A stretch of 64,000 nt of DNA from Anaerolineae bacterium (GCA_029907165.1 JARYMK010000001.1:6661-70660); one strand, 5' to 3'; shown: positions 3,414-61,809, counted from the first letter of the stretch. Made by a program: numbers and translations. The notes: generated by a model from the sequence alone, not told the origin.

Positions 3414-3463
3414 CCGTCATGCTCGCCAGGTCCAGGATTTGACCCTAGACAAGGAGCGCAACC

Positions 3464-4885: not shown

Positions 4886-4906
4886 ACGGGTAACCGAGGA
4901 ATCCCG

Positions 4907-4948
4907 CAGACCTCCGAGGGTCTTCCTGACCTCGGAGGTCTGCTTTTG
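4907..4948 (+). terminator. Rho-independent terminator after hoxH.
   Basis: A perfect 13-bp inverted repeat CAGACCTCCGAGG…CCTCGGAGGTCTG is followed by CTTTTG. Confidence 0.7.
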
Positions 4949-5029
4949 ACGCCCTTGCCCCGTCGGATACAATAACGTTCAACCGCAAAGACGCGCCAGG
5001 ACGGTCACGGGCGCGCTGGGACTAGACAA

Positions 5030-5515: not shown

Positions 5516-5521
5516 GTCGCC

Positions 5522-5863: not shown

Positions 5864-5867
5864 CCCC

Positions 5868-6533: not shown

Positions 6534-6554
6534 GGGGAGAAGGCGGTCCCGGAC

Positions 6555-13592: not shown

Positions 13593-13623
13593 CCACGGTT
13601 CTCGGATGGAAGGAGACGCAGAC

Positions 13624-19714: not shown

Positions 19715-20452
19715 ATGGAGAAACGGAAATTCCAGACACCTTCCATAGGGCTTCTTCTGGTCGGCGTGGCGCTGGGCCTGCTCTTGGCGCTCCAGTGGCG
19801 ATCGGCGCCCACCGCGCGCCTGACGGATACCAGTTACGCCCGCGATCGCACTGCGCTCACCATCGCGCGACTGGAAACCGAACAGGATGCCCTGAAGGCG
19901 CAGGTCGCCGAACTGCGCCAGCAACTGGACGAGCGCCAGCGTCGCGGGCAGTCCACCGACATGCTGCAGGGCCTGGCCGAGGAACTGGCGCGGCAGAAGA
20001 TGCTGGCCGGCCTGGTCGCGCTGCACGGGCCGGGCGTTGAGGTCGTCCTGAACGACAGCAACCGGCAGGTCGTCCCTTCGGTGGTGAACCCCGAGTTGTA
20101 CCTGGTGCACGACTACGACCTGCGCGACGTGGTAAACTTGCTATGGGCAGCCGGAACCGAGGCGATGTCGGTCAACGGCGAGCGCATCGTGGCCAGCACG
20201 TCCATCTACTGCGTGGGTGCTACCATCATGGTCAACGACACGCGCCTGTCGCCGCCGTATGTGATCCACGCCATAGGCCCGTCCGAGCAGCAGGAAGCCC
20301 TGCTCAAGAATCCCAAGTTTCTCGCCGAACTGCGCAACCGCGTGAGCGCCTACGGTCTGACTTTCAGCGTGGCGCAAGTTGCCGACATTGAGGTACCCGC
20401 CTATCGCGGCGGGTTCGGAGCGCTGTATGCAAGTGTCTCAGTATCTCCGTAG
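19715..20452 (+). CDS. DUF881-family membrane-anchored protein (YlxW/YlxX-like).
   Basis: An N-terminal TM segment, a coiled-coil segment (LKAQVAELRQQLDERQRR) and the conserved C-terminal DUF881 core (HGPGVEVVLNDS…VNGERIV…IMVNDTRLSPPYVI) are present. Confidence 0.7.
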   Translation: MEKRKFQTPSIGLLLVGVALGLLLALQWRSAPTARLTDTSYARDRTALTIARLETEQDALKAQVAELRQQLDERQRRGQSTDMLQGLAEELARQKMLAGLVALHGPGVEVVLNDSNRQVVPSVVNPELYLVHDYDLRDVVNLLWAAGTEAMSVNGERIVASTSIYCVGATIMVNDTRLSPPYVIHAIGPSEQQEALLKNPKFLAELRNRVSAYGLTFSVAQVADIEVPAYRGGFGALYASVSVSP

Positions 20453-21131
20453 AATCGCACACGACCACTGGGTTGCACGCATACTGCTGGCGGCGCTGTT
20501 CGTGCTCATCGGCATGCTCATCTTCGCCCAGTTCCGCAGCGAGAGCGCCCTGCGAGCGGCGCGCGTCGCGGCGTCGGGAACCGATCGGGCGGCGCTCATC
20601 AGCGGGCTTGTGGACGCCAACCTTAAGTTGCGCGAAGAGGTGGACTCCCTGCAGGCCAAACTGGCCGAACTGGAGCAGCAGGGCGGCTCGTTGGTCGTCA
20701 TGGTGGAGGAACTCAACCGGCTCAAACTCATCACTGGCCTCAGCGAGGTATCGGGGCCTGGCATTACCCTCACGCTGAATAGCCCCGTGAGCGCCACCGA
20801 GTTGCAGGACATGGTCAACGAACTCAAGAACTCCGGCGCGAAAGCCATCGCCCTCAACGGCCAGCGGCTCATCGTATCCTCGGCTATCGTCGGCACCGAG
20901 GCGGGCATCGCCGTGGACGGAACCCTCATCACCCGGCCGTTCGTGTTCCAGGTGCTCGGCGACCCCGATACCCTGCGGGTGGCGCTGACGCGGAAGGGCG
21001 GGATGCTCGCCTCGCTCCAGGCCGCCCATCCCGGATTCCAGGCCGACATCACCGTCGCCCCGTCCGTGGTGATCCCCATTTACGCCCGGAAGATTGAGTT
21101 CCGCTACGCGCAGCCGGTGGCTGTTCAGTGA
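20427..21131 (+). CDS. DUF881-family protein, tandem paralog of the previous gene.
   Basis: The architecture is the same (TM, coiled coil, SGPGITLTLNS…LNGQRLIVSSAIV…IAVDGTLITRPFVF). It overlaps the upstream paralog by 26 nt. Confidence 0.7.
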   Translation: MQVSQYLRRIAHDHWVARILLAALFVLIGMLIFAQFRSESALRAARVAASGTDRAALISGLVDANLKLREEVDSLQAKLAELEQQGGSLVVMVEELNRLKLITGLSEVSGPGITLTLNSPVSATELQDMVNELKNSGAKAIALNGQRLIVSSAIVGTEAGIAVDGTLITRPFVFQVLGDPDTLRVALTRKGGMLASLQAAHPGFQADITVAPSVVIPIYARKIEFRYAQPVAVQ

Positions 21132-21320
21132 TGCACGGGCCCGGCGAATGCGCTGCGACAACCACTGGCTGTCATTGCGCGGGCACGAAGTGCCCCAAGC
21201 AAACGCTGTGTAGTTGTCCAAGAACCCGGCTGCGCTGGGAACCCACCGCGCCCCGCAAGCGTCTACTACATGAAGTGTCGCGCGCTTCGGCGCGTTTTCG
21301 CTCGCTCAGGAGGCTTCCGT

Positions 21321-27176
<5,856 letters not shown>

Positions 27177-35400: not shown

Positions 35401-36540
35401 TCAGGCCATGTCATTGCCGCGCAGGGCAGGACTTTCCACCCCTAGCCCGCGGCCGCGCACCCGAACCAGCGCGCCTGCTGGGTGCGGCTCAATCTCCACA
35501 CGCGGGCTCAGGAACTGCCCGATGGCCCAGGCGTTGGTGCGTAAGTGCTCGGTGGCCCGCGGCGTGGTGAACGCCACATCCGCGTCGGCCAGCACCGCAG
35601 GCAGCAGCAACTGGTCTGCCAGATGCTCGTCCACGGCAGCCTTCGTCTCGTGAAACCGGATGAGTTCGCGGGCGGCCTCCTCGGCGACGCGCTCCGCAGG
35701 CTTGCGCAGCGCGCCGTAGGCGGTGAACCCGCCGATGCCGCTCTCGTATTCGGCCACGAGGAAGACCACCGTGCCGAAGCCCGCCGCCGGCGCGTCCATC
35801 TCCTGTATGTCGGCGCGCAGGCCCGCCTTGCGGAGCGTCTCCGTCGCCTGGGCCTTCTGCCGCTGGATGATGTGCTCGGGCAGATTGGACGCTGCGCTGA
35901 TGCCCCAGACGCGGGTTACGCGTCCCCGCCGCGTCCAGTCCAGGGAGTACACATCCCCCGCCGGGGCATCCCGCGGCTGGATGATGGCCTGCACCACGCC
36001 CCCGCCTTTCGGGTACCATCCCCAGCGTTGGATAGCGAGGTCGGCCCTGTAGCCGAGCGCCGCGACCGCCGACAGGTACACATGCGCCAGATAGTGAAAT
36101 GGCGGACTCCAGGGCACATGGGTGCCGCCGACCAGCGTCAACCGCGACGGTGCACCGGCAAGCGACAGGGGCAGGAACAGCGTCTGGAAGACCAGCGACA
36201 CCGCGCCCGCGCTTCCCCCCGCCTCTGTGGCCCCCACGTCAAAGGTGTAATCCCCGCCTGCGGGCCTGTGGCGGGGAACGAACAGCAGGTCCTGGGACCC
36301 GACGTGGTCGCCCTCCACCGCCGCACCCGAGATGGCCGCAGCCGCGCGCACCGCCATCAGGTGCTGCGGGCGTAGGCCCGGCTTGGGGCGGCCCGCGCGT
36401 ATCCGCCGCATCCGAAAAGGCCGACCCAGCGCCACGGCCAGCGAAAGCGCCGTGCGCAGAATCTGCCCGCCGCCCTCACCGAAGGAGCCGTCTATCTCCG
36501 GAACATCGGCCTGCGCCCCCGCCATGGTCGCCCCGCTCAC
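35401..36540 (-). CDS. rtcA: RNA 3'-terminal phosphate cyclase.
   Basis: [41 protein letters not shown]…QHL aligns closely with the E. coli RtcA N-terminus ([46 protein letters not shown]). Confidence 0.85.
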
Positions 36541-39014
36541 GGACTCGCGGCGACGGAATCGGACGGAAGTTCCACGCTTTCCTTGCGGTAGAAGCGGATG
36601 CCCGTATCGCCCGCGTCCACGATGATGACGTCGCCCTCTCGGAACTCCCCGCTCAGCAGGCGCAGGGCGAGGGCGTTCTCCACGTGCTTCTGGAGCGCCC
36701 GACGCAGGGGCCGCGCGCCGAAGTTGGGATCGTACCCCTCCCGCGCAAGCCAGTCGCGGGCAGCCTCGGTCAATTCCACCTCCACGCCCTGCTCCCGCAG
36801 CCGCGCGCGAATCTCCTTCATCTGCAGGTCCACGATTTGCTTGACCTGATCCAGGGTCAGCGTATGGAAGATGATGATCTCATCCACGCGGTTCAGGAAC
36901 TCGGGCCGGAAGGTCTCCCGCAGGCCGCGTTCAATGGCCTCGTGGGCGGCGCGCTCCTCGGAATCCCGTGTGTCGGCAGCCCGGAAGCCCAGGGTTCCCC
37001 CCTTGCGCGTGTACTGCGACCCGATGTTGGAGGTCATGATGACCACCGTGTTGCGGAAGTCCACCGTGTGGCCCTGGCCGTCGGTCAGGCGACCGTCCTC
37101 CAGAATCTGGAGCAGCGCGTTCCAGACTTCGGGGTGGGCCTTCTCAATCTCGTCAAAGAGCACCACCTGATAGGGTCTGCGGCGGACGGCCTCGGTCAGT
37201 TGACCGCCTTCCTCGTAGCCCACGTACCCGGGCGGCGCGCCGATGAGGCGGGAGACCGTGTGCCGCTCGCGGTACTCGCTCATGTCCACGCGCACCAGAG
37301 CGTCCTCGTCGTCAAACAGGAACCAGGCCAGCGCCTTGGCCAGTTCGGTCTTGCCGACGCCCGACGACCCCAGGAAGATGAACGAGCCGATGGGGCGGCG
37401 CGGGTCCTTCAGCCCGGACCGCGCCCGCCGAATGGCGTTGGACACGGCGCGGATGGCCTCGTCCTGGCCCACGATGCGCTCGTGGAGCCGCTCCTCCATG
37501 TGGAGGAGGCGCTCGGCCTCGGTCTCCAGGAGCGCCGTAACGGGGATGCCGGTCCATGTGGCGACCACCTCGGCGATGTCCTGCACGTCCACCACTTCGT
37601 CAATGTTCTTCTCGCGCTGCCAGGCTTCGCGGGCGGCGTTGAACTCCTGCTCCAGGCGCAGGCGCTCGGCGCGGTGGATCGCGGCCTTCTCGTAGTCGCG
37701 CTGCTGCCAGGCGGCCTCTTCCTCCGCTGCCAGTTTGTGGATCGCAGCGCGCTTCTCCTTCAGTTCGGGCGGCATGCTATGGATGGCCATCCGCAACTTG
37801 GAGGCGGCCTCGTCTATCAGGTCAATGGCCTTGTCGGGCAGGTGGCGCTCGGTTACGTAGCGTTTGGACAGGCGCGCGGCGGCCACCAGCGCCTCGTCTG
37901 AGAAGCGCACCTTGTGGTGCGCCTCGTAGCGGTCGCGCACGCCGCGCAGCATCTGGATGGTCTCCTCCACCGACGGCTCGTCCACGTACACGGGGGCGAA
38001 GCGGCGCTCCAGGGCGGCGTCTTTCTCTATGTAGCGGCGGTATTCGTCCAGCGTGGTGGCGCCCACGCACTGGAGCTCGCCCCTGGCCAGGGCTGGCTTC
38101 AGCATGTTGGAGGCATCCATAGCGCCCATGGCCGCGCCCGCGCCCACCACGGTGTGGAGTTCGTCAATGAACAGGATGATCTCGCCCTGGGCGCGCTGGA
38201 TTTCCTCAATGGCCGTCTTTAGGCGCTCCTCAAATTCGCCGCGGAACCGTGTGCCCGCCACCATCGCGCCCAGGTCCAGGGCCAGGACGCGCTTGCCCAT
38301 CAGGACTTCGGGCACGTCCTCTTGCACGATCTTCTGCGCCAGACCCTCCACGATGGCGGTCTTGCCCACGCCGGCCTCCCCGATGAGGACCGGGTTATTC
38401 TTAGTGCGGCGCGACAGAATCTGCATCACGCGCATGATCTCTTTGTCCCTGCCGATGACCGGGTCCAGTTTCCCCTCGCGCGCCAGTTGGGTCAGGTCAC
38501 GGGTGTACCGCTCCAGCGTCCGGTAGCGGGTCTCGGCCTGGGGCGAGGTAACCCTCTGCCCGCCCCGCACCTGCTCAATGGCCTCCATCGCCCGATCCCG
38601 CGTAACGCCCATTTCCTCCAGCAGGCGCGATGCGGGCGACCCGCGCTCGGCGATGATGGCGAGGAACAGGTGCTCGGTGGAGATGTAGTCGTCCTTGAGG
38701 CGATTCGCTTCCTCGTTGGCCGTGTCCACCACGTGCTTCAGGCGCGGCGTGATGAACATCTGGCCCGGCATCGTACTGCCGAAGGTGGGCGTTCTGGGCG
38801 CGGCGCGCAAAGTGGTCTCCAGGCGCTGCTTCAGCGCCTCGGTGTCCACGCCCAGTTTGTCCAGAATCTGGGGAATCACGCCCCCCGGCTGTTCTATCAG
38901 CGCCAGGAGCAGGTGCTCGGTATCCACCTGCGTGTGGTTGTAGCGCTGCAAAATCTCGTAGGCGCGCATGGCTGCATCCTGCGCGCGCTCCGTGAAACGG
39001 TCAAATCGCATCAT
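36537..39014 (-). CDS. clpB: ATP-dependent chaperone ClpB (two AAA+ modules with a coiled-coil middle domain).
   Basis: The Clp N-domain repeats, Walker [14 protein letters not shown] and [14 protein letters not shown], and the sensor motifs are present. Length is 825 aa. Confidence 0.9.
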
Positions 39015-39059
39015 AGAGTTTCCCCTCGCCGGTATGCACCGGCTCTGTGGTTCAGGCCA

Positions 39060-40151
39060 CTAGTAGCGAAGGATGGCCCCAATCTGGCCTGCACGTTTCA
39101 GGTCCTCGTTCCCCTGCACGAACTCTATCTCTACGCCCCGCCGGATGGCGCGGCGGACGATGGCATCCACAGCGTCTTTGACAGGAACCATGGGGCCTCC
39201 GCAATAGACGCATGTCTTGGTCTTCTGCGCGCCGATATAGCCACAGTGGTCGCATCGGAATGCCGTGGCCTGAAACCCCTCTTCCACCAGAAGGATATGC
39301 ACGCGCTCCTCTTGCAACGCGGTCAGGGTGTCGGCCAGGCCGATGGCTCCCGGCCCGCCTTTGGTTGCCGCGGTGATCATCTGCTGAATCAGTGCGGCCT
39401 CGCGGTCGCGTTCGGCCTTCTCCAGCAGATCTTGCGCACGCGCCAGCGCCTCGCTCTCCGACGCGGTAATGTCTATGGGCATGGTGCCAATCACGCTGTC
39501 GCGGAGCGCCTTGGGCAGCATGGACAGGAAGCGCGACACGGTTTCCTCCTGCCCGCCCGCGATGAGCCGCTTGCACCGGTGCTTGTTGCAGAAATCCTTG
39601 ACCAGCGTTACGGCATCTTTCAAGTTCTGGTGGGCTTTCTCATCTTGGCGGCGCTGCAACCGCTGGGCTGCCCAGCCGCCCTTCTTGTGCCGCTTCAGTT
39701 CCGTGCCGAACGTCCCGGCCGTGTCCTCTACGATGCCCAGGTGGTACAGGATGACCCGCGCGCCTTCCTGGTCCACCAGCGCGACCGCAAAGCGGCCATA
39801 CTCGTCCAGCATGTCGCTGAGCGGCTTCACGTAGGGCCGATCGGCCACGAACACGTGGTTGCTGACCGGCACGCTGACCGGCAGGGCCCGCCAGAAGTCC
39901 TGCGCCTGGCAGGAGAACATGGCCAGCCCCTTGGCTTGCCAGTCGTATTCCAACTCCACGAAACGATCCATGCGGTCGGCGTCAGCCTGGGCCGCGCCCA
40001 GCGCCACCGCCTGCTTCAGCATCCCCCTAAGGCTCAACTTGACTTCGTCCTTGACGTGGCGGGAAGGATCTGTGCTAAGGTACAGGCTCAACACCGTGGC
40101 TCCATCTGCGTGGAAAGCAGCCAGTTCACGAACATCCTTTTCGTCAAACAT
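39060..40151 (-). CDS. eRF1/Pelota (Dom34)-like release-factor-family protein, bacterial type, with GGW in place of GGQ and a C-terminal CxxC…CxxC zinc ribbon.
   Basis: …GTELKRHKKGGWAAQRLQRRQ… aligns with the eRF1 domain-2 GGQ loop (KKHGRGGQSALRFARLR), with Q replaced by W. The overall length and alternating domain pattern fit the eRF1/Pelota fold. Domain 3 carries the insert CDHCGYIG…CVYCGG. Confidence 0.6.
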   Translation of the reverse strand: MFDEKDVRELAAFHADGATVLSLYLSTDPSRHVKDEVKLSLRGMLKQAVALGAAQADADRMDRFVELEYDWQAKGLAMFSCQAQDFWRALPVSVPVSNHVFVADRPYVKPLSDMLDEYGRFAVALVDQEGARVILYHLGIVEDTAGTFGTELKRHKKGGWAAQRLQRRQDEKAHQNLKDAVTLVKDFCNKHRCKRLIAGGQEETVSRFLSMLPKALRDSVIGTMPIDITASESEALARAQDLLEKAERDREAALIQQMITAATKGGPGAIGLADTLTALQEERVHILLVEEGFQATAFRCDHCGYIGAQKTKTCVYCGGPMVPVKDAVDAIVRRAIRRGVEIEFVQGNEDLKRAGQIGAILRY

Positions 40152-40188
40152 ACTGTCCTCCTGTCTGCATGATCCGATTCTGTTCCGC

Positions 40189-40530
40189 CTACTCGCTACT
40201 CTGCAACTTGCTTTTCAGCAAGGCGACCTCGCGCTCAAAGCGTGCCTGTAGGGCCTCCATCTCCGCCTTCATCTGTGCCACTTGATCCATCAGCGACAGA
40301 ATCGCCTCTACCCCTGCAAGATTGACGCCCAACTCCTCTGTGAGACGCTGAATCTGCCGCAATCGTTCAATGTCGCTGGGCGAGTACAGCCGCCGGTTGC
40401 CCGGCGAGCGGCAGGGCTTGATCAGCCCCAGGCTCTCGTAGTAGCGCAGAGTCTGGGGATGTACCCCTACCATTTTCGCTGCCACGCTGATGACGTAGCA
40501 GGGTTCCTGATGCGACGGACTGTCGCTCAC
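40189..40530 (-). CDS. hspR: MerR-family heat-shock repressor HspR-like regulator.
   Basis: GTG start. The HTH is YVISVAAKMVGVHPQTLRYYESLGLI…RSPGNRRLYS. The C-terminal coiled coil and the position beside clpB are typical of HspR. Confidence 0.7.
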   Translation of the reverse strand: MSDSPSHQEPCYVISVAAKMVGVHPQTLRYYESLGLIKPCRSPGNRRLYSPSDIERLRQIQRLTEELGVNLAGVEAILSLMDQVAQMKAEMEALQARFEREVALLKSKLQSSE

Positions 40531-40544
40531 GAGTGGCCTCCAGA

Positions 40545-41699
40545 CTACTCACGCGGGCGCTGGCCCAGTGTAACCTTGATGGACAACCGCTCCGTCCCGC
40601 GAATCACGTCCAGCACCACGACCTGCCCGGCCTCGGTGAAGTCCAGGTAACTGATGAGCGAGTCCATGCCGGTTACGCGGTTGCCGTCTATGCCCACGAT
40701 GATGTCGCCGCCCGCGCGGACAGCCTCCACGTAGCCGGGCACGCGCACGGTGCGCCGTCCACCGCGCAGGCCGGCCTTCTCGGCGGGACCGCCCGGCGTT
40801 ACCTCTCCCACGAGCGCGCCGCGGTCCACGGGCAGGCTCAGCGCCTCAACGAGTTCCGGCGTGATGGTGTAGCCCCGGATGCCCAGCCACGGGTGCGCGT
40901 AGAAGCCGTCCTTGATGAGCGCGGGCACCACCTTCTTGACGACGTTGACGGGGATGGCAAAGCCAAGCCCCGCCGATGCGCCTGTCTCCGAGATGATCAT
41001 GGTGTTGACGCCGATGACGCGGCCCCGCAGGTCTAGCAGTGGCCCGCCGGAGTTGCCCGGGTTGATGGCAGCGTCGGTCTGGATCAGGTTGGCGATGGAG
41101 AAGCCGCTCTCCTGCGGGAACACCCGCCCCAGGGCGCTGATGATCCCCCGCGTTACCGTGCGCTCCAGCCCGAACGGGTTGCCGATGGCGATGGCCCACT
41201 GGCCTACCTGCACCTTGCTGGAGTCGCCCAGTTCCGCCGGCACGATGAGGTCGGCGGGCGCGTCCACGACAATCACCGCCAGGTCGGCGTCGGGGTCGGT
41301 GCCCACCACCTCGGCCGGCACCTGCGAGCCATCGGCCAGCACCACGCGGATGGTCTCCGCGTCCCTCACCACGTGGTTGTTGGTAACGATGTGCCCTTCG
41401 CGGTCATAGAAGAAGCCGGAGCCCGAACCGGACCCCGTGGCCGTCGTTACCTGGATGTGCACGACCGACGGGCCGACGCGCTGGAACAGGTTCACCAGCA
41501 GGCGCTCCTCCAGTTCCAGCGCCTCGTAGTCTTGCTGGGGCAGCGGCGTGGCTGTGGCCACCACCAGGGGCAGCGTCGTTGGCTGGGCCGTGGGTCGGGT
41601 GGTGGATGCGCCGTCCCCCGTGAACCCGCAGCCCAGCAGCAGAAGCAGGGCCGCCGCGAAGAAGAGCCAGAACTTTCGTACATCAAACCGCGCTTTCAT
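40545..41699 (-). CDS. htrA: HtrA/DegP-family periplasmic serine protease with PDZ domain (lipoprotein signal).
   Basis: The signal with LLLLLGCG, the catalytic triad motifs (TNNHVV…DLAVI…GNSGGPL) and a C-terminal PDZ domain are present. Confidence 0.85.
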   Translation of the reverse strand: MKARFDVRKFWLFFAAALLLLLGCGFTGDGASTTRPTAQPTTLPLVVATATPLPQQDYEALELEERLLVNLFQRVGPSVVHIQVTTATGSGSGSGFFYDREGHIVTNNHVVRDAETIRVVLADGSQVPAEVVGTDPDADLAVIVVDAPADLIVPAELGDSSKVQVGQWAIAIGNPFGLERTVTRGIISALGRVFPQESGFSIANLIQTDAAINPGNSGGPLLDLRGRVIGVNTMIISETGASAGLGFAIPVNVVKKVVPALIKDGFYAHPWLGIRGYTITPELVEALSLPVDRGALVGEVTPGGPAEKAGLRGGRRTVRVPGYVEAVRAGGDIIVGIDGNRVTGMDSLISYLDFTEAGQVVVLDVIRGTERLSIKVTLGQRPRE

Positions 41700-42407: not shown

Positions 42408-42666
42408 GAAACATCAACGATGCAGGCAGGCCCAAGGCGAGTGTTCAGAGAGAGGCGTGGCGGCTGGGGATAGCCACCCTGCTGCAAGTCACCATCGGGT
42501 GCGCGCAACTGCCCAGCCCCGCGATCCCGCTCCACTTCTGCACAGGCCTGTGACAAAAGTTACAGGCGCGGGGCAACGAGTTGTGCTATCTTGTACTATG
42601 TAGGATTGCACTCTGCATCGCCCCGCGAATCCGCACCGGCATCAAGTCCTTGCGAGGAGGGAGGCT

Positions 42667-42771
42667 ATGTACACGACGGATGTCATCTGGTGGGCCTACA
42701 CGGCGTTCCTGGTCTTGGTGATCCTCTTCATGCTGGCCTTCGCCTGGAAGGTGAAGGAGAAAGGAGGGTAA
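42667..42771 (+). CDS. 34-aa single-TM small membrane protein preceding the oxidase genes (not in the ORF track).
   Basis: ATG 42667 to TAA 42769-42771 gives MYTTDVIWWAYTAFLVLVILFMLAFAWKVKEKGG. Its 3' end carries the RBS AAGGAGGG for the next gene. Confidence 0.45.
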   Translation: MYTTDVIWWAYTAFLVLVILFMLAFAWKVKEKGG

Positions 42772-42772
42772 G

Positions 42773-43195
42773 ATGGACAAACGCGAACGGAACTGGTTGT
42801 TCTTCCTCGCAGGCGTGTTTCTGCTCGTCAACGCCATCACGCTCTCGCCCCTCGTGCCCTGGCAGCAGTGGCTTCTCTGGTCTCGCCCCACGCCCGACCG
42901 CATCGTCCCCGTAGAGTTTGAGAACTACCAGATTCGGCTGCCGCGGGGCGGCGTGGAGGTGAAGGCCAACGAGTTCGTGCAGTTCGTCGCCACGTCCAAA
43001 GACGTAACCTACGGGTTCGGCGTGTTCCGGCCCGACGGCACAATGGTGTTCCAGATGCAGGTGCTGCCGGGATATGAGAACAAAATCACGTGGCGATTTG
43101 ACACCCCCGGAGTGTACGATGTGCGCTCCACCGAATACTCCGGCCCGCGGCACCCGGAGATGTACGTCCCGAACGCCATACGGGTGCTGCCGTAG
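42773..43195 (+). CDS. Heme-copper-oxidase subunit II-like cupredoxin-fold protein lacking the CuA ligands.
   Basis: An N-terminal TM segment is followed by a cupredoxin domain. SKDVTYGFGV corresponds to CoxB SQDVIHSW with H→Y. RSTEYSGPRHPEMY corresponds to the CuA loop QCSEICGxxHxxM with both Cys replaced by Ser or Tyr. Confidence 0.65.
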   Translation: MDKRERNWLFFLAGVFLLVNAITLSPLVPWQQWLLWSRPTPDRIVPVEFENYQIRLPRGGVEVKANEFVQFVATSKDVTYGFGVFRPDGTMVFQMQVLPGYENKITWRFDTPGVYDVRSTEYSGPRHPEMYVPNAIRVLP

Positions 43196-43206
43196 GGAGG
43201 TGCGAC

Positions 43207-44859
43207 ATGGCGAAACTCAACTGGCAAACCAAGTGGACCTTGCGTTTCGCGGTTGTTGGCCTGCTGTTCCTGGCGCTGTCGGGGTTTGAGGGCATCCTCA
43301 TGCGCATCCAGTTGGCCGCGCCCGACGCGCTGCACGGGATGGAGCAGGCGCTGATGGCGCTGCGCCCCGTCGGGCGCGAGGTTACGTCCGCCGAACTGTA
43401 CTACGCCATGCTGACGGCGCACCCCATCGTGGGCATCTACGGCTTCGCCTACATGCTGGTCTTCGGCGCGTTCTACTTCCTGGTGCCCCACCTGCTGGGC
43501 AAGGAGGTCCGCCACAAGAAACTGCTGGTGTTCAACTTCTGGGCGCAGATCGTTGGGGTGCTCACCTGCTGGGCGGCGGGCTTCTTCGGGCTGTTCAACT
43601 CGCTGTATACGCTCTACTGGCCGCTGCCCGTGTCCTACGACCGCGTGCCGCTCATCGGCAGCATCGCCTTCACCGTGGGCGCGGCCATCATCATGGTCAA
43701 CATCCTGCTGTTCTCGTACAACACCTTCAGCACCGTGCTCAGCAAGAGCAACCCAGGGTCGTACAGTTTCGGCGCGTTCCTGCGGGCGGCTTTCGGCATC
43801 TCGCGCCTGATGAAGCGCCTCGGCAAGGAGGATAAGGCCGCACCCAACCTGGACTACAACGGCCTGCCCGTGTTCATCGTGGCGGTGGCGCGCGGCTCCA
43901 TTGACACTGTCATCAACGCCATCGTGCTCCTGACGGCGGGTGCGCTGATCCTCGTCTATGGCATCGCGGCGCTCCTCAAGTCGCCGCTGAACCCCGCCGC
44001 CGTTGACCCGCTCATCTACAAAAACTGGTTCTGGTGGGGGCTGGACATGGTGGCTGACGGCAACGTGTTGATGTACACGGCGGGCGTGTGGTATCTGCTG
44101 GTGCCGCTCCTAGTGGGCCGCAAACTGTTCGGCGAGAACGTGGTCAAGACGGTCATCATGGTAGACCTGCTGGTGTCGCTGGGCGTGTGGAGCCACCACC
44201 TGCTGGGTGACCAGAGTCAGCCGCTGTGGATGCGGCTGATTTCCGGGCAGTTTATCACCTGGGGCGAGTTCTTCACCATGGGCCTGACGCTGTTCGCCAC
44301 GCTGATGACCATCTGGCTGGCGCGTCCGGTCAAGTTCTCGCCGGCGCTCAAATTCGTGCTGGGCTCCATGTTCGGGTTTATCATGGGCGGCGCGGCGGGC
44401 CTCATCCAGGCCAACGTAGGGCTGAACGTGGTATTCCACAACACCCAGTGGGTCGTGTCGCTTCACGCGCACACATTCCTGCTGACCGGCCTGGCGATGC
44501 TCCTGTTCGCCGTCGTGTACGCCCTGATTCCTATGCTGACGAACCTGCAGATCAAGAGCAACCGCCTGGTGAATGCCCACTTCTGGCTGTGGATGATCGG
44601 CTCGGTGGGGATGGCCTACGTAATGGGCATGGCGGGCGCGCGCGGAATGCTTCGCCGCACGTTGTACCCGGAAGGCAACCCCTACCAGACCAACGAGACG
44701 CTGGCTATCGTCGGCGGCGTTCTGATCGGCCTGGGCTTCCTTGCGTTCCTGGTCAACATCATCGCCACGCTGGGCTGGAAGAACGTCCTCAGCCTGGTCG
44801 TGCCAGAGCGATGGCTGGAGCGGCAGCCTTCGGCGGCGCTGGCGGAAGCGCAGCCGTAG
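43207..44859 (+). CDS. Heme-copper oxidase superfamily subunit I-like protein with an incomplete CuB site.
   Basis: It has 12+ TM helices. The helix II His (LTAHPIVG), the helix VII HH (GVWSHHLLG) and the helix X HNTQWVVSLHAH (H-x8-H-x-H, as in HDTYYVVAHFH) are conserved. The helix VI segment DPLIYKNWFWWGLDMVA aligns with DPVLYQHLFWFFGHPEVY, with the CuB His and the cross-linked Tyr replaced by Leu and Ala. Confidence 0.7.
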   Translation: MAKLNWQTKWTLRFAVVGLLFLALSGFEGILMRIQLAAPDALHGMEQALMALRPVGREVTSAELYYAMLTAHPIVGIYGFAYMLVFGAFYFLVPHLLGKEVRHKKLLVFNFWAQIVGVLTCWAAGFFGLFNSLYTLYWPLPVSYDRVPLIGSIAFTVGAAIIMVNILLFSYNTFSTVLSKSNPGSYSFGAFLRAAFGISRLMKRLGKEDKAAPNLDYNGLPVFIVAVARGSIDTVINAIVLLTAGALILVYGIAALLKSPLNPAAVDPLIYKNWFWWGLDMVADGNVLMYTAGVWYLLVPLLVGRKLFGENVVKTVIMVDLLVSLGVWSHHLLGDQSQPLWMRLISGQFITWGEFFTMGLTLFATLMTIWLARPVKFSPALKFVLGSMFGFIMGGAAGLIQANVGLNVVFHNTQWVVSLHAHTFLLTGLAMLLFAVVYALIPMLTNLQIKSNRLVNAHFWLWMIGSVGMAYVMGMAGARGMLRRTLYPEGNPYQTNETLAIVGGVLIGLGFLAFLVNIIATLGWKNVLSLVVPERWLERQPSAALAEAQP

Positions 44860-45037
44860 CCGCGGGTAGACGCGAACCTGCGCGAGTAGAAGCGCCCGTG
44901 CGACACACCTTCGGGAGTGCGTCGCACGCTGCTTTCGGCGACCAAAGTCACAGACAACACCTTCCAGATGCCCTATACTGAATGTGCAAGAAACTTGACA
45001 ATCGGGCCTGCGCCCGATGCACATAGGAGGCCGGACG

Positions 45038-45592
45038 ATGAAACCAACCGAAGTCCTCAAAGAGGAACACCAGGGCATCAAGACCGGGTTGCGCATCCTG
45101 GGCGGCATCGCCGACCGCCTCAAGGCGGGCCAGCCCGTCCCACCGGAGCACCTGGAGGAGATGGTGGACTTCATCCGCACCTTTGCCGACCGGTGCCACC
45201 ATGGCAAGGAGGAAGACCTGCTGTTCGTGGAGATGGAAAAGGCGGGCGTTCCCAAGCAGGGCGGCCCCATCGCGGTCATGCTCTTGGAGCACGACCAGGG
45301 GCGCGGATACGTGCGGGCCATGGCCGACGCAATCCCCGGGTACAAGGCCGGGGACCCCGCGGCCGCGCAGAAGTTTGCCCAGAACTCCTACAACTATATT
45401 GGCCTGCTCACCCAGCACATTGACAAAGAGGACAATATCCTCTACGTCATCGCCGACATGCACCTTTCGGACGAGCAGCAGGCGTGCCTGCTAGACGGGT
45501 TTGACCGCGTAGAAACCGAGCGCATCGGCCCGGGCAAGCACGAGGAGTACCACCGGATGTTGGAGCGCCTGAGCGGCGTGTATCTGGAATAG
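45038..45592 (+). CDS. Hemerythrin-like (HHE cation-binding) domain protein.
   Basis: The RBS AGGAGG precedes the start. MKPTEVLKEEHQGIK…FADRCHHGKEEDLLF…LLEHDQGRGY…HIDKEDNILY is the H-HxxxE-H…HxxxD pattern of hemerythrin-like domains. Confidence 0.75.
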   Translation: MKPTEVLKEEHQGIKTGLRILGGIADRLKAGQPVPPEHLEEMVDFIRTFADRCHHGKEEDLLFVEMEKAGVPKQGGPIAVMLLEHDQGRGYVRAMADAIPGYKAGDPAAAQKFAQNSYNYIGLLTQHIDKEDNILYVIADMHLSDEQQACLLDGFDRVETERIGPGKHEEYHRMLERLSGVYLE

Positions 45593-59131: not shown

Positions 59132-59992
59132 TTATCCTGGGTCAGCATTTCCACCGTCGGGAGCGCACGGAGCAGATGGCGTGGTCATCTCTCGCCCACC
59201 GAAGAACTCCGCCGCCTTCCGGGGCGCATCGGCTTCGCCGCTCGTCAGCGGCTCGTCGCGGTACTGCCAAGCCTGCTTGCGGATGTAAGCGCCTAGATTG
59301 GCGACCAACGTCTCAAGCCTACCGGTCGCCTCGTCCGCCAGAAAGCGAGCGGTGTCCGGGTCATGCGTGGCCGCGAGGCGAAGGGCCTGGCGCAGGTGTG
59401 CGAGGCACAGCCCGTCCGACGCGGTGTATAGCGCGCGAAAGTCGGGCGCGTCGCACAGGCTGACCAGGGCGCGGACAACGGTCTCCTCCTCGTGAGCGGC
59501 GTGAGCGCACATCCGGCACTCGCCGACAGGGCGCAGTGGATCCAAAGCGCCCGGATGCCTGATCAGCGAGCCGACGACGAGGCGAAAACGGCCCCACGCG
59601 CGCCGCCACCAAACGTTGGGACGCGAGGCCGAAGTCGGCAAGCCCCGGCGGAATGCCACCAGGTCATCTCGCACACGCTCGGCCAGGTCTTCATAGAGGA
59701 TGCTGTTCCCCAGCGCGTCCCCGAAGCGAGTTGTCTCTGTGTGGTACAGGAGCCACGTGTGTTCGGGGCAGAAGCCCAGGCCATGCACGATGTAGGCTCG
59801 TGCGTCGCCGTCGTTCACGTTCTCGGCCAGAAGGAATCGCACGTAGCGATGCACGGTCTCCTCCTTGAGCCGACACACCGCGCACCCCTGGAGGCGGAGG
59901 GCCCGCTTCAGGTCCGCCGAAATCATGCTGAACCGACCTGTGGAAACCGCCTGCGGCTCGCCAATGGCTTGTTCTTGTGGCATCAAGGTCAA
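59132..59992 (-). CDS. Uncharacterized Cys-rich repeat protein (2x CxxC…CxxH modules), paralog of the next gene.
   Basis: The modules are CAVCRLKEE…GFCPEHTW and CRMCAHAAHEE…GLCLAHLRQ. The C-terminal tail …YIRKQAWQYRDEPL…AAEFFGG is shared with the upstream paralog. Confidence 0.5.
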   Translation of the reverse strand: MTLMPQEQAIGEPQAVSTGRFSMISADLKRALRLQGCAVCRLKEETVHRYVRFLLAENVNDGDARAYIVHGLGFCPEHTWLLYHTETTRFGDALGNSILYEDLAERVRDDLVAFRRGLPTSASRPNVWWRRAWGRFRLVVGSLIRHPGALDPLRPVGECRMCAHAAHEEETVVRALVSLCDAPDFRALYTASDGLCLAHLRQALRLAATHDPDTARFLADEATGRLETLVANLGAYIRKQAWQYRDEPLTSGEADAPRKAAEFFGGREMTTPSAPCAPDGGNADPG

Positions 59993-60044
59993 AGGACTCC
60001 TGTATGATAAGGTGAGTCAGTCGCCTGCACTCTAGGCTCTGCTC

Positions 60045-61241
60045 TCACCCGTTCACTCTCTCGCCGCCGAAGAAGACCAATGCGCGCAGCCACGAGTCCT
60101 TCTCCTTCCCCAGAGGCTCGTCGGAGAAGCGGTAATCGTGCTTGCGGATGAGTTCGCCCAGGTCGCGCACCAGCGGGCCCATGCGGGCGGCGATGGCCGC
60201 TGTCCAGGTGCGGGCTTCAGGAGGCGTGGACGTCTCCAGCGCGAGGCGGGCGTGGGGAAGGCAGGCACGCTCGCGGGCCTCGTCGCCCGCGGTTTCCAGT
60301 GCCGCCCAGGCTGCGTTGTGGGCATGGTCGCACATCGGGCAGTCGTACGGTTCGGACTCGCTCGCGGCGAGGGTCTGCTTCACCAGATCGTAGGCGAATT
60401 CGCTCCCATGGCGGTGGAGCGTCCACAGGGTGGCTTGGCCCTGGTGAGTTGGGCATAGCCGCAGCCAGATTCTGGCCAGGTCCTCGGGCGTGATGGCCTG
60501 CAAGAATTCCTGTTCGGCCATCGCCTCGGCATGGCAGCCTGGGCATTGCATCTCCAGGCGCGTGCTGGCTGTGATGTCGGCAGCGCCGCACTGACACAGC
60601 AGCAGATTGGCGATGGCATCAGAGTTATCCCGTTGGGCTTGCCGGGCCGCAGCGGTAGCGATCACGCGCCTGGCTTCTCCGCTGCGCGCGGTATGAATCG
60701 TCCGTTCCGCGTGCGCCAGGCACAGGCCATGGGATACGCCGTACCGTTCCCGCAGCGCGGGCGAGGCGTCCAGCCCTGCGACGAGCGCGCCCAGGTACGT
60801 GCGCTCGCGCTCCTCGGATTGCTCGCACAGCCAGCAGGGCTTTGTGGGCGACAACAGGCGCAGCACCCGATGGTTCTCTCGCGCGAACAGCCGTGCATAC
60901 AGCGGCGCGGGCCTGCTCACGCCCTCAAGGACGGTTTGCGCGAAATCGCGGTACAGGATGGCGATTCCTAGCGGTCCCACCCAGGGGTGATTGACCGCCT
61001 GCCTCACGGCGCGGGTGTGCGTCGCGCAGAAGCCCAGCGAGTCCCGAAGCCGCTTGCGGACGTGGGGCGAGTTGACGTTTTCCCAGAACAGGCTGAACAG
61101 GAACCGTTCCTCGGCGCGCCGCATCAGCCCGCAGATTGGACAGGGAGGCTGGCGCATGGCTTCCATGAGGTTGTAGGCGATGATGTCGGCCGGTGTAGGG
61201 AACCAGCGTTCATCGCCCTGGATAACCCTACGCCTCTCCAT
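60045..61241 (-). CDS. Uncharacterized Cys-rich repeat protein (4x CxxC…CxxH modules).
   Basis: The modules are CPICGLMRRAEERF…GFCATHTR; CWLCEQSEERE…GLCLAHAER; CPGCHAEAMAE…RLCPTHQG; CPMCDHAHNAA…ACLPHARL. The C-terminus is …LIRKHDYRFSDEPL…ALVFFGG. The start at MERRRV (61241) is preferred over 61307, to avoid overlap with the upstream gene. Confidence 0.5.
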   Translation of the reverse strand: MERRRVIQGDERWFPTPADIIAYNLMEAMRQPPCPICGLMRRAEERFLFSLFWENVNSPHVRKRLRDSLGFCATHTRAVRQAVNHPWVGPLGIAILYRDFAQTVLEGVSRPAPLYARLFARENHRVLRLLSPTKPCWLCEQSEERERTYLGALVAGLDASPALRERYGVSHGLCLAHAERTIHTARSGEARRVIATAAARQAQRDNSDAIANLLLCQCGAADITASTRLEMQCPGCHAEAMAEQEFLQAITPEDLARIWLRLCPTHQGQATLWTLHRHGSEFAYDLVKQTLAASESEPYDCPMCDHAHNAAWAALETAGDEARERACLPHARLALETSTPPEARTWTAAIAARMGPLVRDLGELIRKHDYRFSDEPLGKEKDSWLRALVFFGGERVNG

Positions 61242-61809
61242 CGGACCTCCCCAAGCCCAGCCGCCGGAGGATGCGGCGCACCAGTCCGGCCGGCCTCTGC
61301 GCGGCATGGACCTCGCGCAGTGTCGTAGGCGCGGGCTCCACCACCCCCGGAATGCGACGTGCGGTGCCCCCGCCGCGCCCGCTTTTCAGGGCTGCGATCT
61401 CCTCGTTGAGCCTCTGGATGTGGCCCTCCAGAGCGTGGATAGTGTTGCGCAGGGCCGCGTTCTGGATCTCCAGCGTCTGGTTGTCCTTCATGAGGTGGAA
61501 CGCTCTGTACTTCATCACCGCGTACAGGGAATCCAACTGCATGAGGCGATCCGAAAGGCCGCCAGGCGTGTCCAGCGACGCCAGGCTGTCGTCGGAGATG
61601 ACCTGGTCGGTCTTGATTTTGGCAAGCCCCAGCGTCAGCGCGATGCGCAGCCCCTCTTCTTCGGTCCAGCCGTTTGCGGCGAAGACCTGCTTGGCCTCCT
61701 CCAGCGTCTCGCGCAGGATGGATATGGCAACTTGAATCACCTCTGCGCCCCGGAAGAAGTCGCGCTCCATTTCCTCTGTGGACAGCTCATGCTCGTCCAT
61801 GTGAATCAC
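61228..61809 (-). CDS. Hypothetical coiled-coil protein (193 aa), first gene of the Cys-rich cluster.
   Basis: The N-terminal helical domain is followed by a heptad-rich segment (LEIQNAALRNTIHALEGHIQRLNEEIAALK) and a basic C-terminus. Confidence 0.4.
   Translation of the reverse strand: MIHMDEHELSTEEMERDFFRGAEVIQVAISILRETLEEAKQVFAANGWTEEEGLRIALTLGLAKIKTDQVISDDSLASLDTPGGLSDRLMQLDSLYAVMKYRAFHLMKDNQTLEIQNAALRNTIHALEGHIQRLNEEIAALKSGRGGGTARRIPGVVEPAPTTLREVHAAQRPAGLVRRILRRLGLGRSDGEA

What the first reader, a model, noticed from the sequence alone, without database searches (positions are those of the whole stretch)
42667..45592. Divergent heme-copper-oxidase-like complex lacking the CuB histidine and Tyr cross-link, with a CuA-less subunit II, a 34-aa membrane peptide and a hemerythrin
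Subunit I conserves the heme ligands (AHPIVG, and HNTQWVVSLHAH, which is H-x8-H-x-H) and the helix VII HH. The helix VI segment WFWWGLDMVA aligns with WFFGHPEVY of A-type oxidases, so the first CuB histidine and the cross-linked tyrosine are replaced by Leu and Ala. Subunit II keeps the cupredoxin fold but has lost every CuA Cys and His ligand (DVTYGF versus DVIHSW, STEYSGPRHPEM versus CSEICGxxHxxM). Canonical O2 reductases and the known NOR families retain all three CuB or FeB histidines. This therefore looks like an uncharacterized HCO-superfamily branch with a remodelled binuclear centre. The co-located hemerythrin-like protein often accompanies NO or O2 stress enzymes, and a tiny TM peptide is translationally coupled upstream. 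Possible functions include NO or N2O chemistry, O2 sensing, or a non-catalytic role.
Basis: partly seen in the sequence, partly recalled or inferred. Interest (0 to 1): 0.6.

Follow-up and report, generated by a model that had tools for sequence, protein, structure and literature searches.

The report
A gNOR-type nitric oxide reductase operon
This gene cluster encodes a Chloroflexi version of gNOR, an already named but never purified branch of the respiratory oxidase superfamily that is thought to turn nitric oxide into nitrous oxide, so the finding is real but is not a new kind of enzyme.

Summary
The four ORFs exist as described, in an Anaerolineae MAG. Subunit I is a heme-copper-oxidase (HCO) protein. 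It keeps all heme histidines and the helix VII HH, but has no histidine or tyrosine at the two helix VI active-site positions. Subunit II is a ba3-like cupredoxin that has lost both CuA cysteines and the first histidine, but keeps the second His and the Met.

This combination is the published definition of gNOR (Hemp & Gennis; Sievert 2008; Murali et al. PNAS 2024). Relatives 42-43% identical, with the same invariant motifs and operon, occur in Sulfurimonas, Sulfurovum and Persephonella, the genera where gNOR was defined, and also in archaea.

Details I did not find in the texts I could read:
- The 34-aa peptide is the split-off first transmembrane helix of subunit II, and is fused in other lineages.
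- Hemerythrin, Crp/Fnr regulators and heme o synthase recur nearby.

The most likely function is quinol-dependent NO reduction at a heme/non-heme-iron centre. That is inferred; gNOR has never been assayed.

The parts
42667..42771 (+). 34-aa single-helix membrane peptide. It is the split-off first transmembrane helix of subunit II and a functional analogue of ba3 subunit IIa.
   Evidence: Found in 54 related loci, and 49 of these are exactly 34 aa. The stop-to-subunit II start spacing is mostly 1-3 nt. An HMM built from it retrieves, out of 5860 stop-to-stop segments, the N-terminus of fused two-helix subunit II in L059, L061 and L063. It also retrieves separate small ORFs just upstream of subunit II in Dehalococcoidia and archaea. 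The acidic N-terminus and basic C-terminus (KVKEKGG) predict an N-out/C-in topology.
42773..43195 (+). Subunit II: one transmembrane helix plus a cupredoxin domain without a CuA site.
   Evidence: NCBIfam CoxB E 1.3e-7 and Pfam COX2 E 0.015, both below cutoff. The family profile hits T. thermophilus ba3 subunit II best (E about 2e-6). The alignment gives H->Y80, C->S119, C->S123, with H127 and M130 kept. The motif RSTEYSGP is invariant. This gene lies directly upstream of subunit I in all 76 loci that contain upstream DNA.
43207..44859 (+). Subunit I (550 aa), the HCO catalytic subunit of gNOR type.
   Evidence: Pfam COX1 E 3.9e-64. The AF2 model has pTM 0.80 and Foldseek TM about 0.7 to bo3, aa3 and ba3 subunit I. 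At least 575 GTDB species genomes encode relatives.
43420..43422 (+). H72 codon: helix II ligand of the low-spin heme.
   Evidence: Invariant, and in the His column of the multi-family alignment.
44044..44058 (+). Codons D280 to D284 (D-M-V-A-D) in helix VI. Asp replaces the first CuB/FeB histidine, and Asp replaces the cross-linked tyrosine.
   Evidence: In three MAFFT modes, D280 falls in the His column (35/37) and D284 in the Tyr column (29 Y, 6 N, 1 Q). Both are invariant across all clades. G285 is a one-residue insertion.
44194..44199 (+). H330-H331 codons: the helix VII metal ligands.
   Evidence: WSHH is invariant.
44266..44268 (+). E354 codon: a family-specific buried glutamate in helix VIII.
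   Evidence: Invariant in the family, while other HCO families have I/V/L in this column. A role near the metal centre is inferred only.
44464..44472 (+). H420-A-H422 codons: helix X ligands of the high-spin and low-spin hemes.
   Evidence: Invariant, and in His columns.
45017..45592 (+). Hemerythrin-like di-iron protein (probable true start 45038); a facultative partner.
   Evidence: Pfam Hemerythrin E 5.3e-21. Its only PDB sequence relatives are YtfE/RIC (E 6e-4). A homolog lies within 8 kb of the operon in about 20 of 80 loci. It is the adjacent same-strand gene, less than 250 nt away, in the window and in 9 other loci, including archaeal ones.
42549..42564 (.). TGTGAcaaaagTTACA palindrome (CRP-like, 9 of 10), 118 nt upstream of the operon; a possible regulator site.
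   Evidence: Seen in the sequence. A similar site lies at the same offset only in L025. It is not conserved across loci, so the evidence is weak.

Best explanation
The cluster encodes a Chloroflexota (Anaerolineae) member of the gNOR family of the heme-copper oxidoreductase superfamily.

The complex has three membrane polypeptides:
- A 34-aa peptide, which is the detached first transmembrane helix of subunit II.
- A one-helix cupredoxin subunit II that cannot bind CuA.
- A 12-helix subunit I.

Subunit I carries a low-spin heme (H72/H422) and a high-spin heme (H420). The high-spin heme is probably heme o. Next to it is a non-heme metal bound by H330, H331 and the carboxylate of D280. D284 (at the tyrosine position) and E354 sit nearby. 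Two histidines plus one or more carboxylates is the classic non-heme Fe(II) motif, so the metal is most likely iron (FeB), not copper.

With no CuA and no cytochrome c domain, electrons most likely come from menaquinol bound in subunit I. They would pass through the low-spin heme to the binuclear centre, where 2 NO + 2 e- + 2 H+ give N2O + H2O.

In this apparently fermentative anaerobe, the role is more likely NO detoxification than respiratory denitrification. The neighbouring hemerythrin-like di-iron protein would bind or buffer NO or O2, or repair damaged iron centres, as YtfE/NorA-type proteins do.

Shown: family membership, ligand pattern, subunit architecture and neighbourhood.
Inferred: the metal identity, the quinol donor, the NO reductase activity and the hemerythrin's role.
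For: Membership:
- Subunit I is COX1.
- D280 is in the His column and D284 in the Tyr column.
- Subunit II is CuA-less, with its best match to ba3 subunit II.
- The nearest non-family relatives are 33% identical or less and carry the B-type GHPVVY motif.
- Homologs 42-43% identical with identical motifs occur in Campylobacterales (L077, L079). Their close relatives are named Sulfurimonas, Sulfurovum and Persephonella. These are the genera listed for gNOR in Table A4 of PMC8756737.
- Archaeal members also exist, as published for gNOR.
- The published definition is Asp in place of an active-site His, no Tyr, a cupredoxin subunit lacking CuA ligands, a putative quinol site and B-family relatedness.

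Function:
- The redox ligands are invariant, and mean column identity is 62-79%, in at least 575 species. This argues for an active enzyme.
- Crp/Fnr-family regulators lie nearby in 12 loci, hemerythrin in 15-20 loci, and heme o synthase (TIGR01473, 265 bits against a cutoff of 210) in 11 loci.
- The hemerythrin's only solved relatives are the nitrosative-stress protein YtfE.
- In Sulfurimonas the operon is divergent from a molybdopterin nitrate-reductase-like gene and a NIR_SIR nitrite/sulfite reductase gene.
- cNOR uses a conserved FeB-binding glutamate, E211. From memory, E211 lies four residues after the first His ligand, which is the position of D284 here.
- A 2-His-1-carboxylate heme/non-heme-iron protein mimic reduces NO, as cited.
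Against: - No gNOR has been purified or assayed. As of 2026, eNOR is the only one of the four newly identified clades (eNOR, sNOR, gNOR, nNOR) with confirmed activity.
- The 64-kb window has no nir, nos or nar genes. None was among the recurrent neighbour clusters, but the neighbours were never screened for nir, nos or nar directly.
- Many hosts (Anaerolineae, Bathyarchaeia, Methanomethylicia, Dehalococcoidia) are anaerobes not known as denitrifiers, and I did not check whether they make quinones.
- Heme o synthase neighbours and a hemerythrin would fit an O2-reactive enzyme equally well.
- The quinol site was not located here.
- The FIND preprint reports a His->Glu heme-ligand substitution in gNOR. 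I do not see it in this family; all three heme histidines are kept.
- I could not obtain a sequence explicitly labelled gNOR (Suden or DAMO_1118-1119), so membership rests on the feature match plus taxonomy.
- Profile methods disagree on the helix VI register.
Confidence: 0.6

Rival explanations
1. It is an O2- or peroxide-scavenging quinol oxidase of anaerobes. The heme o/non-heme-metal centre would reduce O2, perhaps to H2O2 or slowly to water, to protect oxygen-sensitive metabolism. The hemerythrin would act as an O2 binder or sensor.
For: - Heme o synthase, typical of oxidases, lies next to the operon in 11 loci.
- Hemerythrins classically bind O2 (Pfam hit; the O2-binding role is from general knowledge).
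- Crp/Fnr regulators often sense O2.
- The hosts are mostly anaerobes with no visible denitrification genes nearby.
- The best Foldseek hits are E. coli bo3 quinol oxidase.
Against: - The redox-active Tyr needed for four-electron O2 reduction is absent, and no migrated Tyr has been reported for these families.
- One CuB His is replaced by a carboxylate, which favours Fe over Cu.
- The Foldseek ranking of bo3 over aa3 and ba3 is marginal (TM 0.70 against 0.64-0.72).
Confidence: 0.15
2. It performs another N-oxide reaction, such as NO dismutation or N2O reduction, rather than NO reduction to N2O.
For: - Other divergent HCO branches have been proposed as NO dismutase and as a membrane N2O reductase.
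- The active site is unusual (2 His plus 2 Asp plus a buried Glu) and untested.
Against: - No specific feature points to these reactions.
- The published NOD and N2O-reductase candidates belong to the qNOR- and cNOR-related part of the tree, not the B-family-related part.
Confidence: 0.07
3. It is a separate HCO family that only converges on gNOR features. That would make it a genuinely undescribed branch.
For: - I could not retrieve a sequence explicitly labelled gNOR.
- The FIND preprint attributes a His->Glu heme-ligand change to gNOR, which is absent here.
- The representative search shows the clade is well isolated: only two full-length 50% clusters lie within E<1e-30.
Against: - The Sulfurimonas, Sulfurovum and Persephonella proteins belong to the same clade, with identical motifs and operon order.
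- The literature states that gNOR is the only HCO family with an active-site His replaced. Two such families in the same genera would be needed.
Confidence: 0.06
4. It is a degenerate, non-catalytic or purely sensory relic of an oxidase.
For: It has lost canonical CuB, Tyr and CuA ligands.
Against: - All heme ligands, HH, D280, D284 and E354 are invariant across phyla and domains.
- Identity is 73-96% among hundreds of Chloroflexota, and the three-gene operon is maintained.
- The replaced positions are themselves invariant, which is the opposite of decay.
Confidence: 0.03

Closest known systems
gNOR family of the heme-copper oxidoreductase superfamily (Hemp & Gennis 2008; Sievert et al. 2008; Murali et al. 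PNAS 2024, PMC11214002)
   Same: - Asp replaces one active-site His, and the cross-linked Tyr is absent.
- Subunit II is a cupredoxin without CuA ligands.
- The family is related to the B-family and occurs in Bacteria and Archaea.
- Orthologs are found in Sulfurimonas, Sulfurovum and Persephonella.
   Different: - This is a Chloroflexota (Anaerolineae) member, 42-43% identical to the Campylobacterales proteins.
- Here the first helix of subunit II is a separate 34-aa gene.
- A hemerythrin gene follows the operon.
- The heme-ligand His->Glu change mentioned for gNOR in the FIND preprint is not present.
B-family oxygen reductase, Thermus thermophilus cytochrome ba3 (PDB 1EHK/1XME)
   Same: - Subunit II has one helix plus a cupredoxin, and ba3 subunit II is its best sequence match.
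- There is a 34-residue single-helix third subunit; ba3 subunit IIa is 34 aa.
- From memory, the ba3 gene order is small peptide, II, I.
- The FWW-x2-[H/D]-x3-[Y/D] helix VI frame aligns without gaps (ba3 sequence from memory).
   Different: - ba3 has CuA, three CuB histidines and the His-Tyr cross-link, and it reduces O2.
- No sequence similarity was detected between the 34-aa peptide and IIa.
- The peptide's predicted polarity is N-out, as for helix 1 of two-helix subunit II. From memory, ba3 IIa has the opposite polarity.
cNOR/qNOR nitric oxide reductases
   Same: - The proposed reaction is the same.
- A non-heme metal site includes a carboxylate. cNOR has three His plus a Glu, and that Glu lies at the His+4 position (from memory), where D284 sits here.
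- There is no Tyr cofactor.
- qNOR also uses quinol.
   Different: [quoted passage not shown]
- No NorQ/NorD-type genes appeared among the recurrent neighbour clusters, though they were not searched for directly.
E. coli cytochrome bo3 ubiquinol oxidase
   Same: - Subunit II is a CuA-less cupredoxin.
- The electron donor is quinol.
- It uses heme o, and heme o synthase lies near the operon in 11 loci.
- It gives the top Foldseek matches.
   Different: bo3 is an A-family proton-pumping O2 reductase with three CuB His and the Tyr cross-link, a two-helix subunit II, and subunits III and IV.
YtfE/RIC, NorA, DnrN hemerythrin-like di-iron proteins
   Same: - It has an HHE hemerythrin domain, and the only PDB sequence relatives are YtfE.
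- From memory, Ralstonia norA lies next to the qNOR gene norB, a precedent for a hemerythrin-like gene beside a NOR gene.
   Different: - It lacks the ScdA_N domain of YtfE.
- It scores far below the NCBIfam cutoffs (23.8 against 254 bits).
- It has a roughly 45-aa C-terminal extension.
- The association with the operon is facultative, in about a quarter of loci.

Membership tests
gNOR (HCO superfamily) | Subunit I is an HCO (COX1) protein with two heme-ligating sites and a binuclear centre. | tested here: met
   Pfam COX1 E 3.9e-64. H72, H420 and H422 are in His columns. AF2/Foldseek TM is about 0.7 to oxidase subunit I.
gNOR (HCO superfamily) | One of the three active-site histidines is replaced by aspartate. 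| tested here: met
   D280 sits in the helix VI His column in three MAFFT modes (35/37 outgroups have His) and is invariant in all clades. Caveat: HMMER and hhalign place gaps differently.
gNOR (HCO superfamily) | The cross-linked active-site tyrosine is absent. | tested here: met
   D284 occupies the Tyr column. Table A4 of PMC8756737 lists 'D' as the gNOR active-site residue.
gNOR (HCO superfamily) | The secondary subunit has a cupredoxin fold but lacks the CuA ligands. | tested here: met
   The profile matches ba3 subunit II. Both Cys are replaced by Ser and the first His by Tyr.
gNOR (HCO superfamily) | It belongs to the clade that contains the Sulfurimonas/Sulfurovum/Persephonella (and M. 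oxyfera) proteins, and is related to the B-family. | tested here: met
   It is 42-43% identical to Campylobacterales loci L077 and L079. Their 70-95% relatives are named Sulfurimonas, Sulfurovum and Persephonella, and motifs are identical in alignment A5. The next relatives are 33% identical or less and carry the B-type GHPVVY motif. M. oxyfera DAMO_1118-1119 was not retrievable, and no formal tree was built.
gNOR (HCO superfamily) | Conserved quinol-binding residues and quinol:NO oxidoreductase activity (both proposed in the literature, not demonstrated). | not testable with these tools
   The residues are given in a paper I could not read. E28 and R33 in helix I are invariant charged residues, but their role is a guess. 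No gNOR activity has been reported.
A/B-family O2 reductases | CuB is bound by three histidines, there is a His-Tyr cross-link, and subunit II has CuA (or is a quinol oxidase with an intact CuB/Tyr). | tested here: not met
   D280 and D284 replace the His and the Tyr. The CuA cysteines are absent.
cNOR/qNOR | FeB is bound by three His plus a Glu, with a cytochrome c subunit or fused N-terminal domain, and C-family relatedness. | tested here: not met
   Only two His are present. The partner subunit is a cupredoxin. No NorB chain appears among the PDB sequence hits at E<=1e-5, whereas A, B and C oxidases do.
ba3 subunit IIa (CbaD) | It is a 34-residue single-helix subunit that replaces helix 1 of subunit II. 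| tested here: inconclusive
   The length is the same. By inference it has the same structural role, since the peptide is homologous to helix 1 of fused two-helix subunit II in other gNOR lineages. No sequence similarity to IIa was found, and the predicted polarity differs.
Hemerythrin HHE domain proteins | It has an HHE cation-binding four-helix domain with His/Glu/Asp di-iron ligands. | tested here: met
   PF01814 at 75.8 bits against a cutoff of 25.3. The motifs EEH, CHHGKEE, LEHD and QHIDKED are visible in the sequence.

The most novel reading that the evidence does not exclude
In the strictly anaerobic, non-denitrifying lineages that hold most members (Anaerolineae, Dehalococcoidia, Bathyarchaeia, Methanomethylicia), the enzyme may not be a respiratory NO reductase. 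It could instead be a heme o/non-heme-iron quinol oxidoreductase with a 2-His/2-Asp(+Glu) centre that has a different physiological substrate, such as O2, H2O2 or NO handled in a detoxifying cycle. It would work as a module with the recurrent hemerythrin partner. That would be a new catalytic solution inside the oxidase fold.
Probability: 0.15. Interest if true: 0.6.

Novelty: new member of a known kind. Interest (0 to 1): 0.3.

Why it matters
gNOR genes are already counted as N2O sources in environmental surveys, yet no member has been characterised. The family now appears in at least 575 species genomes, mostly Chloroflexota and archaea that are not regarded as denitrifiers. If these enzymes really reduce NO, a large group of anaerobes contributes to NO detoxification and N2O formation. 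If they do not, survey-based N2O budgets that count gNOR are inflated.

This work gives concrete hypotheses for the first biochemical study:
- a three-polypeptide composition, because the 34-aa gene must be co-expressed;
- a likely heme o cofactor;
- the D280/D284/E354 carboxylate cluster;
- the hemerythrin partner.

Annotation is also wrong in public records. Subunit I is labelled 'cbb3-type cytochrome c oxidase subunit I', and subunit II is labelled 'hypothetical protein' in NCBI records ('cytochrome c oxidase subunit 2' in JGI).

Tried and rejected
- Labelled gNOR sequences. I looked for Sievert 2008 and the BBA 2022 quinol-oxidation paper; neither is held. The supplements of the PNAS paper are not held either. 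Membership therefore had to be argued from features plus taxonomy.
- Helix VI register by profile methods. HMMER pairwise, HMMER profile against PDB and hhalign against a B-like alignment each gave a different gapped register (L279, D284 and G285 as 'His'). I rejected these in favour of the gap-free register, which three MAFFT modes on 54 sequences also recovered. A 4-6-residue indel inside a continuous transmembrane helix (AF2 helix 274-303) is implausible.
- Fold search. It confirmed the HCO fold but could not separate A-, B- or quinol-oxidase affinity.
- Shared operator. FNR-box and CRP-box scans and a general palindrome scan of the 200-300 nt upstream of the operon start (300 nt in 71 loci for the box scans, 200 nt in 55 loci for the palindrome scan) found nothing conserved.
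- The 34-aa peptide against PDB: no hit.
- Exact look-up of the window's subunit I in the contig index: not on record. The subunit II look-up returned only a 1.7-kb contig.
- Denitrification genes in the window: none found among 30 annotated ORFs.
- Pseudogene or relic reading: rejected on conservation.

Full report
**What is there**

- The 550-aa protein matches Pfam COX1 at E 3.9e-64.
- The 140-aa protein weakly matches subunit II models: COX2 at E 0.015 and TIGR CoxB at E 1.3e-7.
- The 191-aa protein is a Hemerythrin HHE domain protein at E 5.3e-21.

Subunit II is 100% identical to an NCBI 'hypothetical protein' from an Anaerolineae MAG. The rest of the window looks like an anaerobic fermenter. 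It carries a POR-type oxidoreductase, Etf with acyl-CoA dehydrogenase, a [NiFe] hydrogenase with Hyp genes, and a selenocysteine formate dehydrogenase. No nir, nos or nar genes were found among the 30 annotated ORFs.

**Subunit I active site**

H72 (AHPIVG), H330/H331 (WSHH), H411, H420 and H422 (HNTQWVVSLHAH) are present and invariant.

That register needs a gap. HMMER pairwise reproduces it. However, the HMMER profile and hhalign give two other gapped registers, so profile methods do not settle the matter.

A 54-sequence alignment mixes this family with 37 full-length proteins from other HCO families. In three MAFFT modes it gives the same result:

| Window residue | Column in the other families |
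|---|---|
| W276 | conserved Trp |
| D280 | His (35 of 37) |
| D284 | Tyr (29 Y, 6 N, 1 Q) |
| G285 | one-residue insertion |

The same register aligns D267 to D284 without gaps on the bovine DPxxYxxxFW-x3-H-x3-Y frame, and FWWGLDMVAD on ba3 FWWTGHPIVY. Both reference sequences are from memory. It also keeps the 50-residue spacing to the helix VII HH. The AF2 model shows residues 274-303 as one continuous helix. A related Nitrospinota protein has WWGLHSYVN, with His exactly where D280 sits.

So the first metal-ligand His is replaced by Asp and the cross-link Tyr by Asp. Both are invariant from Chloroflexota to archaea to Campylobacterales. E354 in helix VIII is a further family-specific invariant carboxylate; other families have I/V/L there.

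**Subunit II and the small peptide**

A profile of subunit II hits T. thermophilus ba3 subunit II best. The alignment gives H->Y80, C->S119 and C->S123, while the second His (H127) and the Met (M130) remain. CuA cannot form, but 'every ligand lost' overstates it.

The 34-aa ORF is a real gene.
- 54 related loci have it, and 49 of these are exactly 34 aa. Its stop lies 1-3 nt before subunit II in most.
- An HMM built from it was searched against 5860 stop-to-stop segments from the more distant loci. It retrieves the N-terminus of a fused two-helix subunit II in Firestonebacteria, an unclassified bacterium and a Thermoprotei archaeon. It also retrieves separate small ORFs directly upstream of subunit II in Dehalococcoidia and Bathyarchaeia.
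- Campylobacterales, Omnitrophica and Methanomethylicia also have the fused two-helix form.

The peptide is therefore helix 1 of subunit II, split off in the cytoplasmic loop. This mirrors the role of the 34-residue subunit IIa of ba3 (length confirmed). No sequence similarity to IIa was found.

**Which family**

Close homologs are abundant: about 3000 at E<=1e-10, and the top 120 are 73-96% identical. Those that carry an organism name are all Chloroflexota, annotated as 'cbb3-type' oxidase.

In a 1.84-billion-protein representative library the clade is isolated. Only two full-length 50% clusters score better than 1e-30. The next full-length relatives are 33% identical or less and carry the B-type GHPVVY motif.

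A scan of one genome per species found at least 575 genomes with a relative:
- Chloroflexota, at 63-96% identity;
- Firestonebacteria, at 56%;
- Bathyarchaeia, Thermoproteota and Methanomethylicia, at about 50%;
- Campylobacterales and Omnitrophica, at 42-43%.

The close relatives of the Campylobacterales protein are named Sulfurimonas, Sulfurovum, Persephonella, Nitrosophilus and SAR324. They carry the same invariant motifs.

The literature defines gNOR as follows:
- It is the first HCO family to replace an active-site His, and the replacement is Asp.
- It lacks the Tyr.
- Its secondary subunit is a cupredoxin without CuA residues.
- It has a putative quinol site.
- It is related to the B-family.
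- It occurs in Bacteria and Archaea, mainly in sulfidic settings.

A table derived from Hemp & Gennis and Sievert lists gNOR in Sulfurimonas, Sulfurovum and Persephonella, with active-site residue 'D'. Every defining feature I could test is met.

The main caveat is that I could not obtain a sequence explicitly labelled gNOR. In addition, one preprint attributes a heme-ligand His->Glu change to gNOR that I do not see here.

**Neighbourhood**

Subunits II and I are adjacent in all 76 loci that have upstream DNA. Clustering the flanking genes of 86 loci gave these recurrent neighbours:

| Neighbour | Loci |
|---|---|
| Hemerythrin (some as DUF438-hemerythrin-PAS fusions) | 15 by clustering, about 20 by tblastn |
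| Crp/Fnr-family regulator | 12 |
| Heme o synthase (TIGR01473, above cutoff) | 11 |
| Unannotated 459-aa membrane protein directly downstream | 7 |
| DUF166 | 6 |

The hemerythrin is the immediately adjacent same-strand gene in the window and in 9 other loci, including archaeal ones. Its only solved sequence relatives are YtfE/RIC. In Sulfurimonas the operon is divergent from a molybdopterin nitrate-reductase-like gene and a NIR_SIR gene. No shared operator was found.

**How it most likely works**

The evidence shows a three-polypeptide membrane complex with two hemes and a metal site made of H330, H331 and D280, with D284 and E354 close by.

The following steps are inferred:
- Two His plus carboxylate(s) favour non-heme Fe. 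cNOR likewise adds a Glu ligand.
- Without CuA or a cytochrome c domain, the donor is probably menaquinol.
- The heme o synthase neighbours suggest a heme o high-spin site.
- The reaction is 2 NO + 2 e- + 2 H+ -> N2O + H2O, serving NO detoxification in this anaerobe.
- The hemerythrin acts as an NO/O2-binding or iron-repair accessory.

My confidence is about 0.9 for gNOR membership and about 0.6 for NO reductase function. No gNOR has ever been assayed, and no denitrification genes accompany the operon.

The main rival is an O2/peroxide-scavenging quinol oxidase. Other N-oxide chemistry, a convergent new family and a non-catalytic relic are less likely.

**Verdict**

The interpretation as an undescribed branch fails, because the branch is gNOR. 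This is a new (Chloroflexota) member of a known, predicted kind.

Modest new points are the split subunit II helix, the D280/D284/E354 cluster, the heme o synthase and hemerythrin associations, and the much wider distribution among anaerobes than the 156 GTDB genomes reported earlier.

Noticed in passing
window 13519-16335 (+): Two adjacent ORFs (13519-14676 and 14689-16335) are one gene interrupted by an in-frame TGA at 14674-14676. The context is HNVDHCARL*HSSTVTG, the classic selenocysteine site of formate dehydrogenase alpha (NuoG-like N-terminus plus molybdopterin domains). A NuoF-like gene lies upstream at 11733-13592.
   Followed up: partly
window 983-11033: A hydrogenase and maturation cluster: a NuoG/molybdopterin-like protein (983-2839), a [NiFe] hydrogenase large subunit (3464-4885), HypF (6555-8942) and HypE-like (9822-11033). 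Together with the Sec-FDH, this suggests a formate/H2 module.
   Followed up: no
window 21270-27176 (+): A 1968-aa bacterial alpha-2-macroglobulin with four Big_5 Ig-like domains plus MG, bait-region, TED and MG10 domains.
   Followed up: no
window 36537-41699 (-): A heat-shock-like cluster just upstream of the operon: ClpB, a baeRF family10/VLRF1-like release-factor homolog (39060-40151), a MerR/HspR-like regulator (40189-40530) and HtrA (40545-41699). The synteny with the operon is kept only in the closest relatives, L001 and L002.
   Followed up: partly
window 42549-42564; L025 at the same offset: A CRP-like palindrome, TGTGAcaaaagTTACA, lies 118 nt upstream of the 34-aa ORF. L025 has TGTGATAAACCTCACA at -119. 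It is not conserved in the other loci, although Crp/Fnr regulators are frequent neighbours.
   Followed up: partly
L010 9741-11120, also L007, L025, L029, L034, L049, L053: A polytopic membrane protein of about 459 aa, with no Pfam or NCBIfam match, lies 13-134 nt downstream of subunit I in L010, L025 and L034 and further downstream in the other loci. It could be an extra subunit or an assembly factor. It is absent from the window.
   Followed up: partly
L081 9649-10245, also L077, L079, L082, L083: In Campylobacterales, a 198-aa protein with a C-terminal membrane segment and no family match follows subunit I by 10-65 nt, in place of the hemerythrin.
   Followed up: no
L014 5309-6730, L075 10557-11840, also L009, L022, L034: Some operon neighbours are 430-470-aa DUF438-Hemerythrin-PAS_10 fusion proteins. 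These suggest a gas- or redox-sensing hemerythrin variant linked to the same operon.
   Followed up: partly
P0291 (Nitrospinota/Nitrospirota, 472 aa): This is the nearest non-family HCO with a similar helix VI (WWGLHSYVN: His kept, Asn at the Tyr position). It looks like an sNOR/bNOR-type active site and served as a register anchor. Its family was not identified.
   Followed up: no
window 19715-21131 and 59132-61307: There are tandem paralog pairs of uncharacterised families: two DUF881 genes on the + strand and two DUF6062 genes on the - strand.
   Followed up: no
public annotation of the family: Subunit I homologs are systematically annotated 'cbb3-type cytochrome c oxidase subunit I'. In NCBI records subunit II is 'hypothetical protein' (JGI calls it cytochrome c oxidase subunit 2), and no Pfam family is on record for it. 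In the two Chloroflexota contigs and one near-identical JGI contig I looked at, the 34-aa gene is called but has no annotation.
   Followed up: yes
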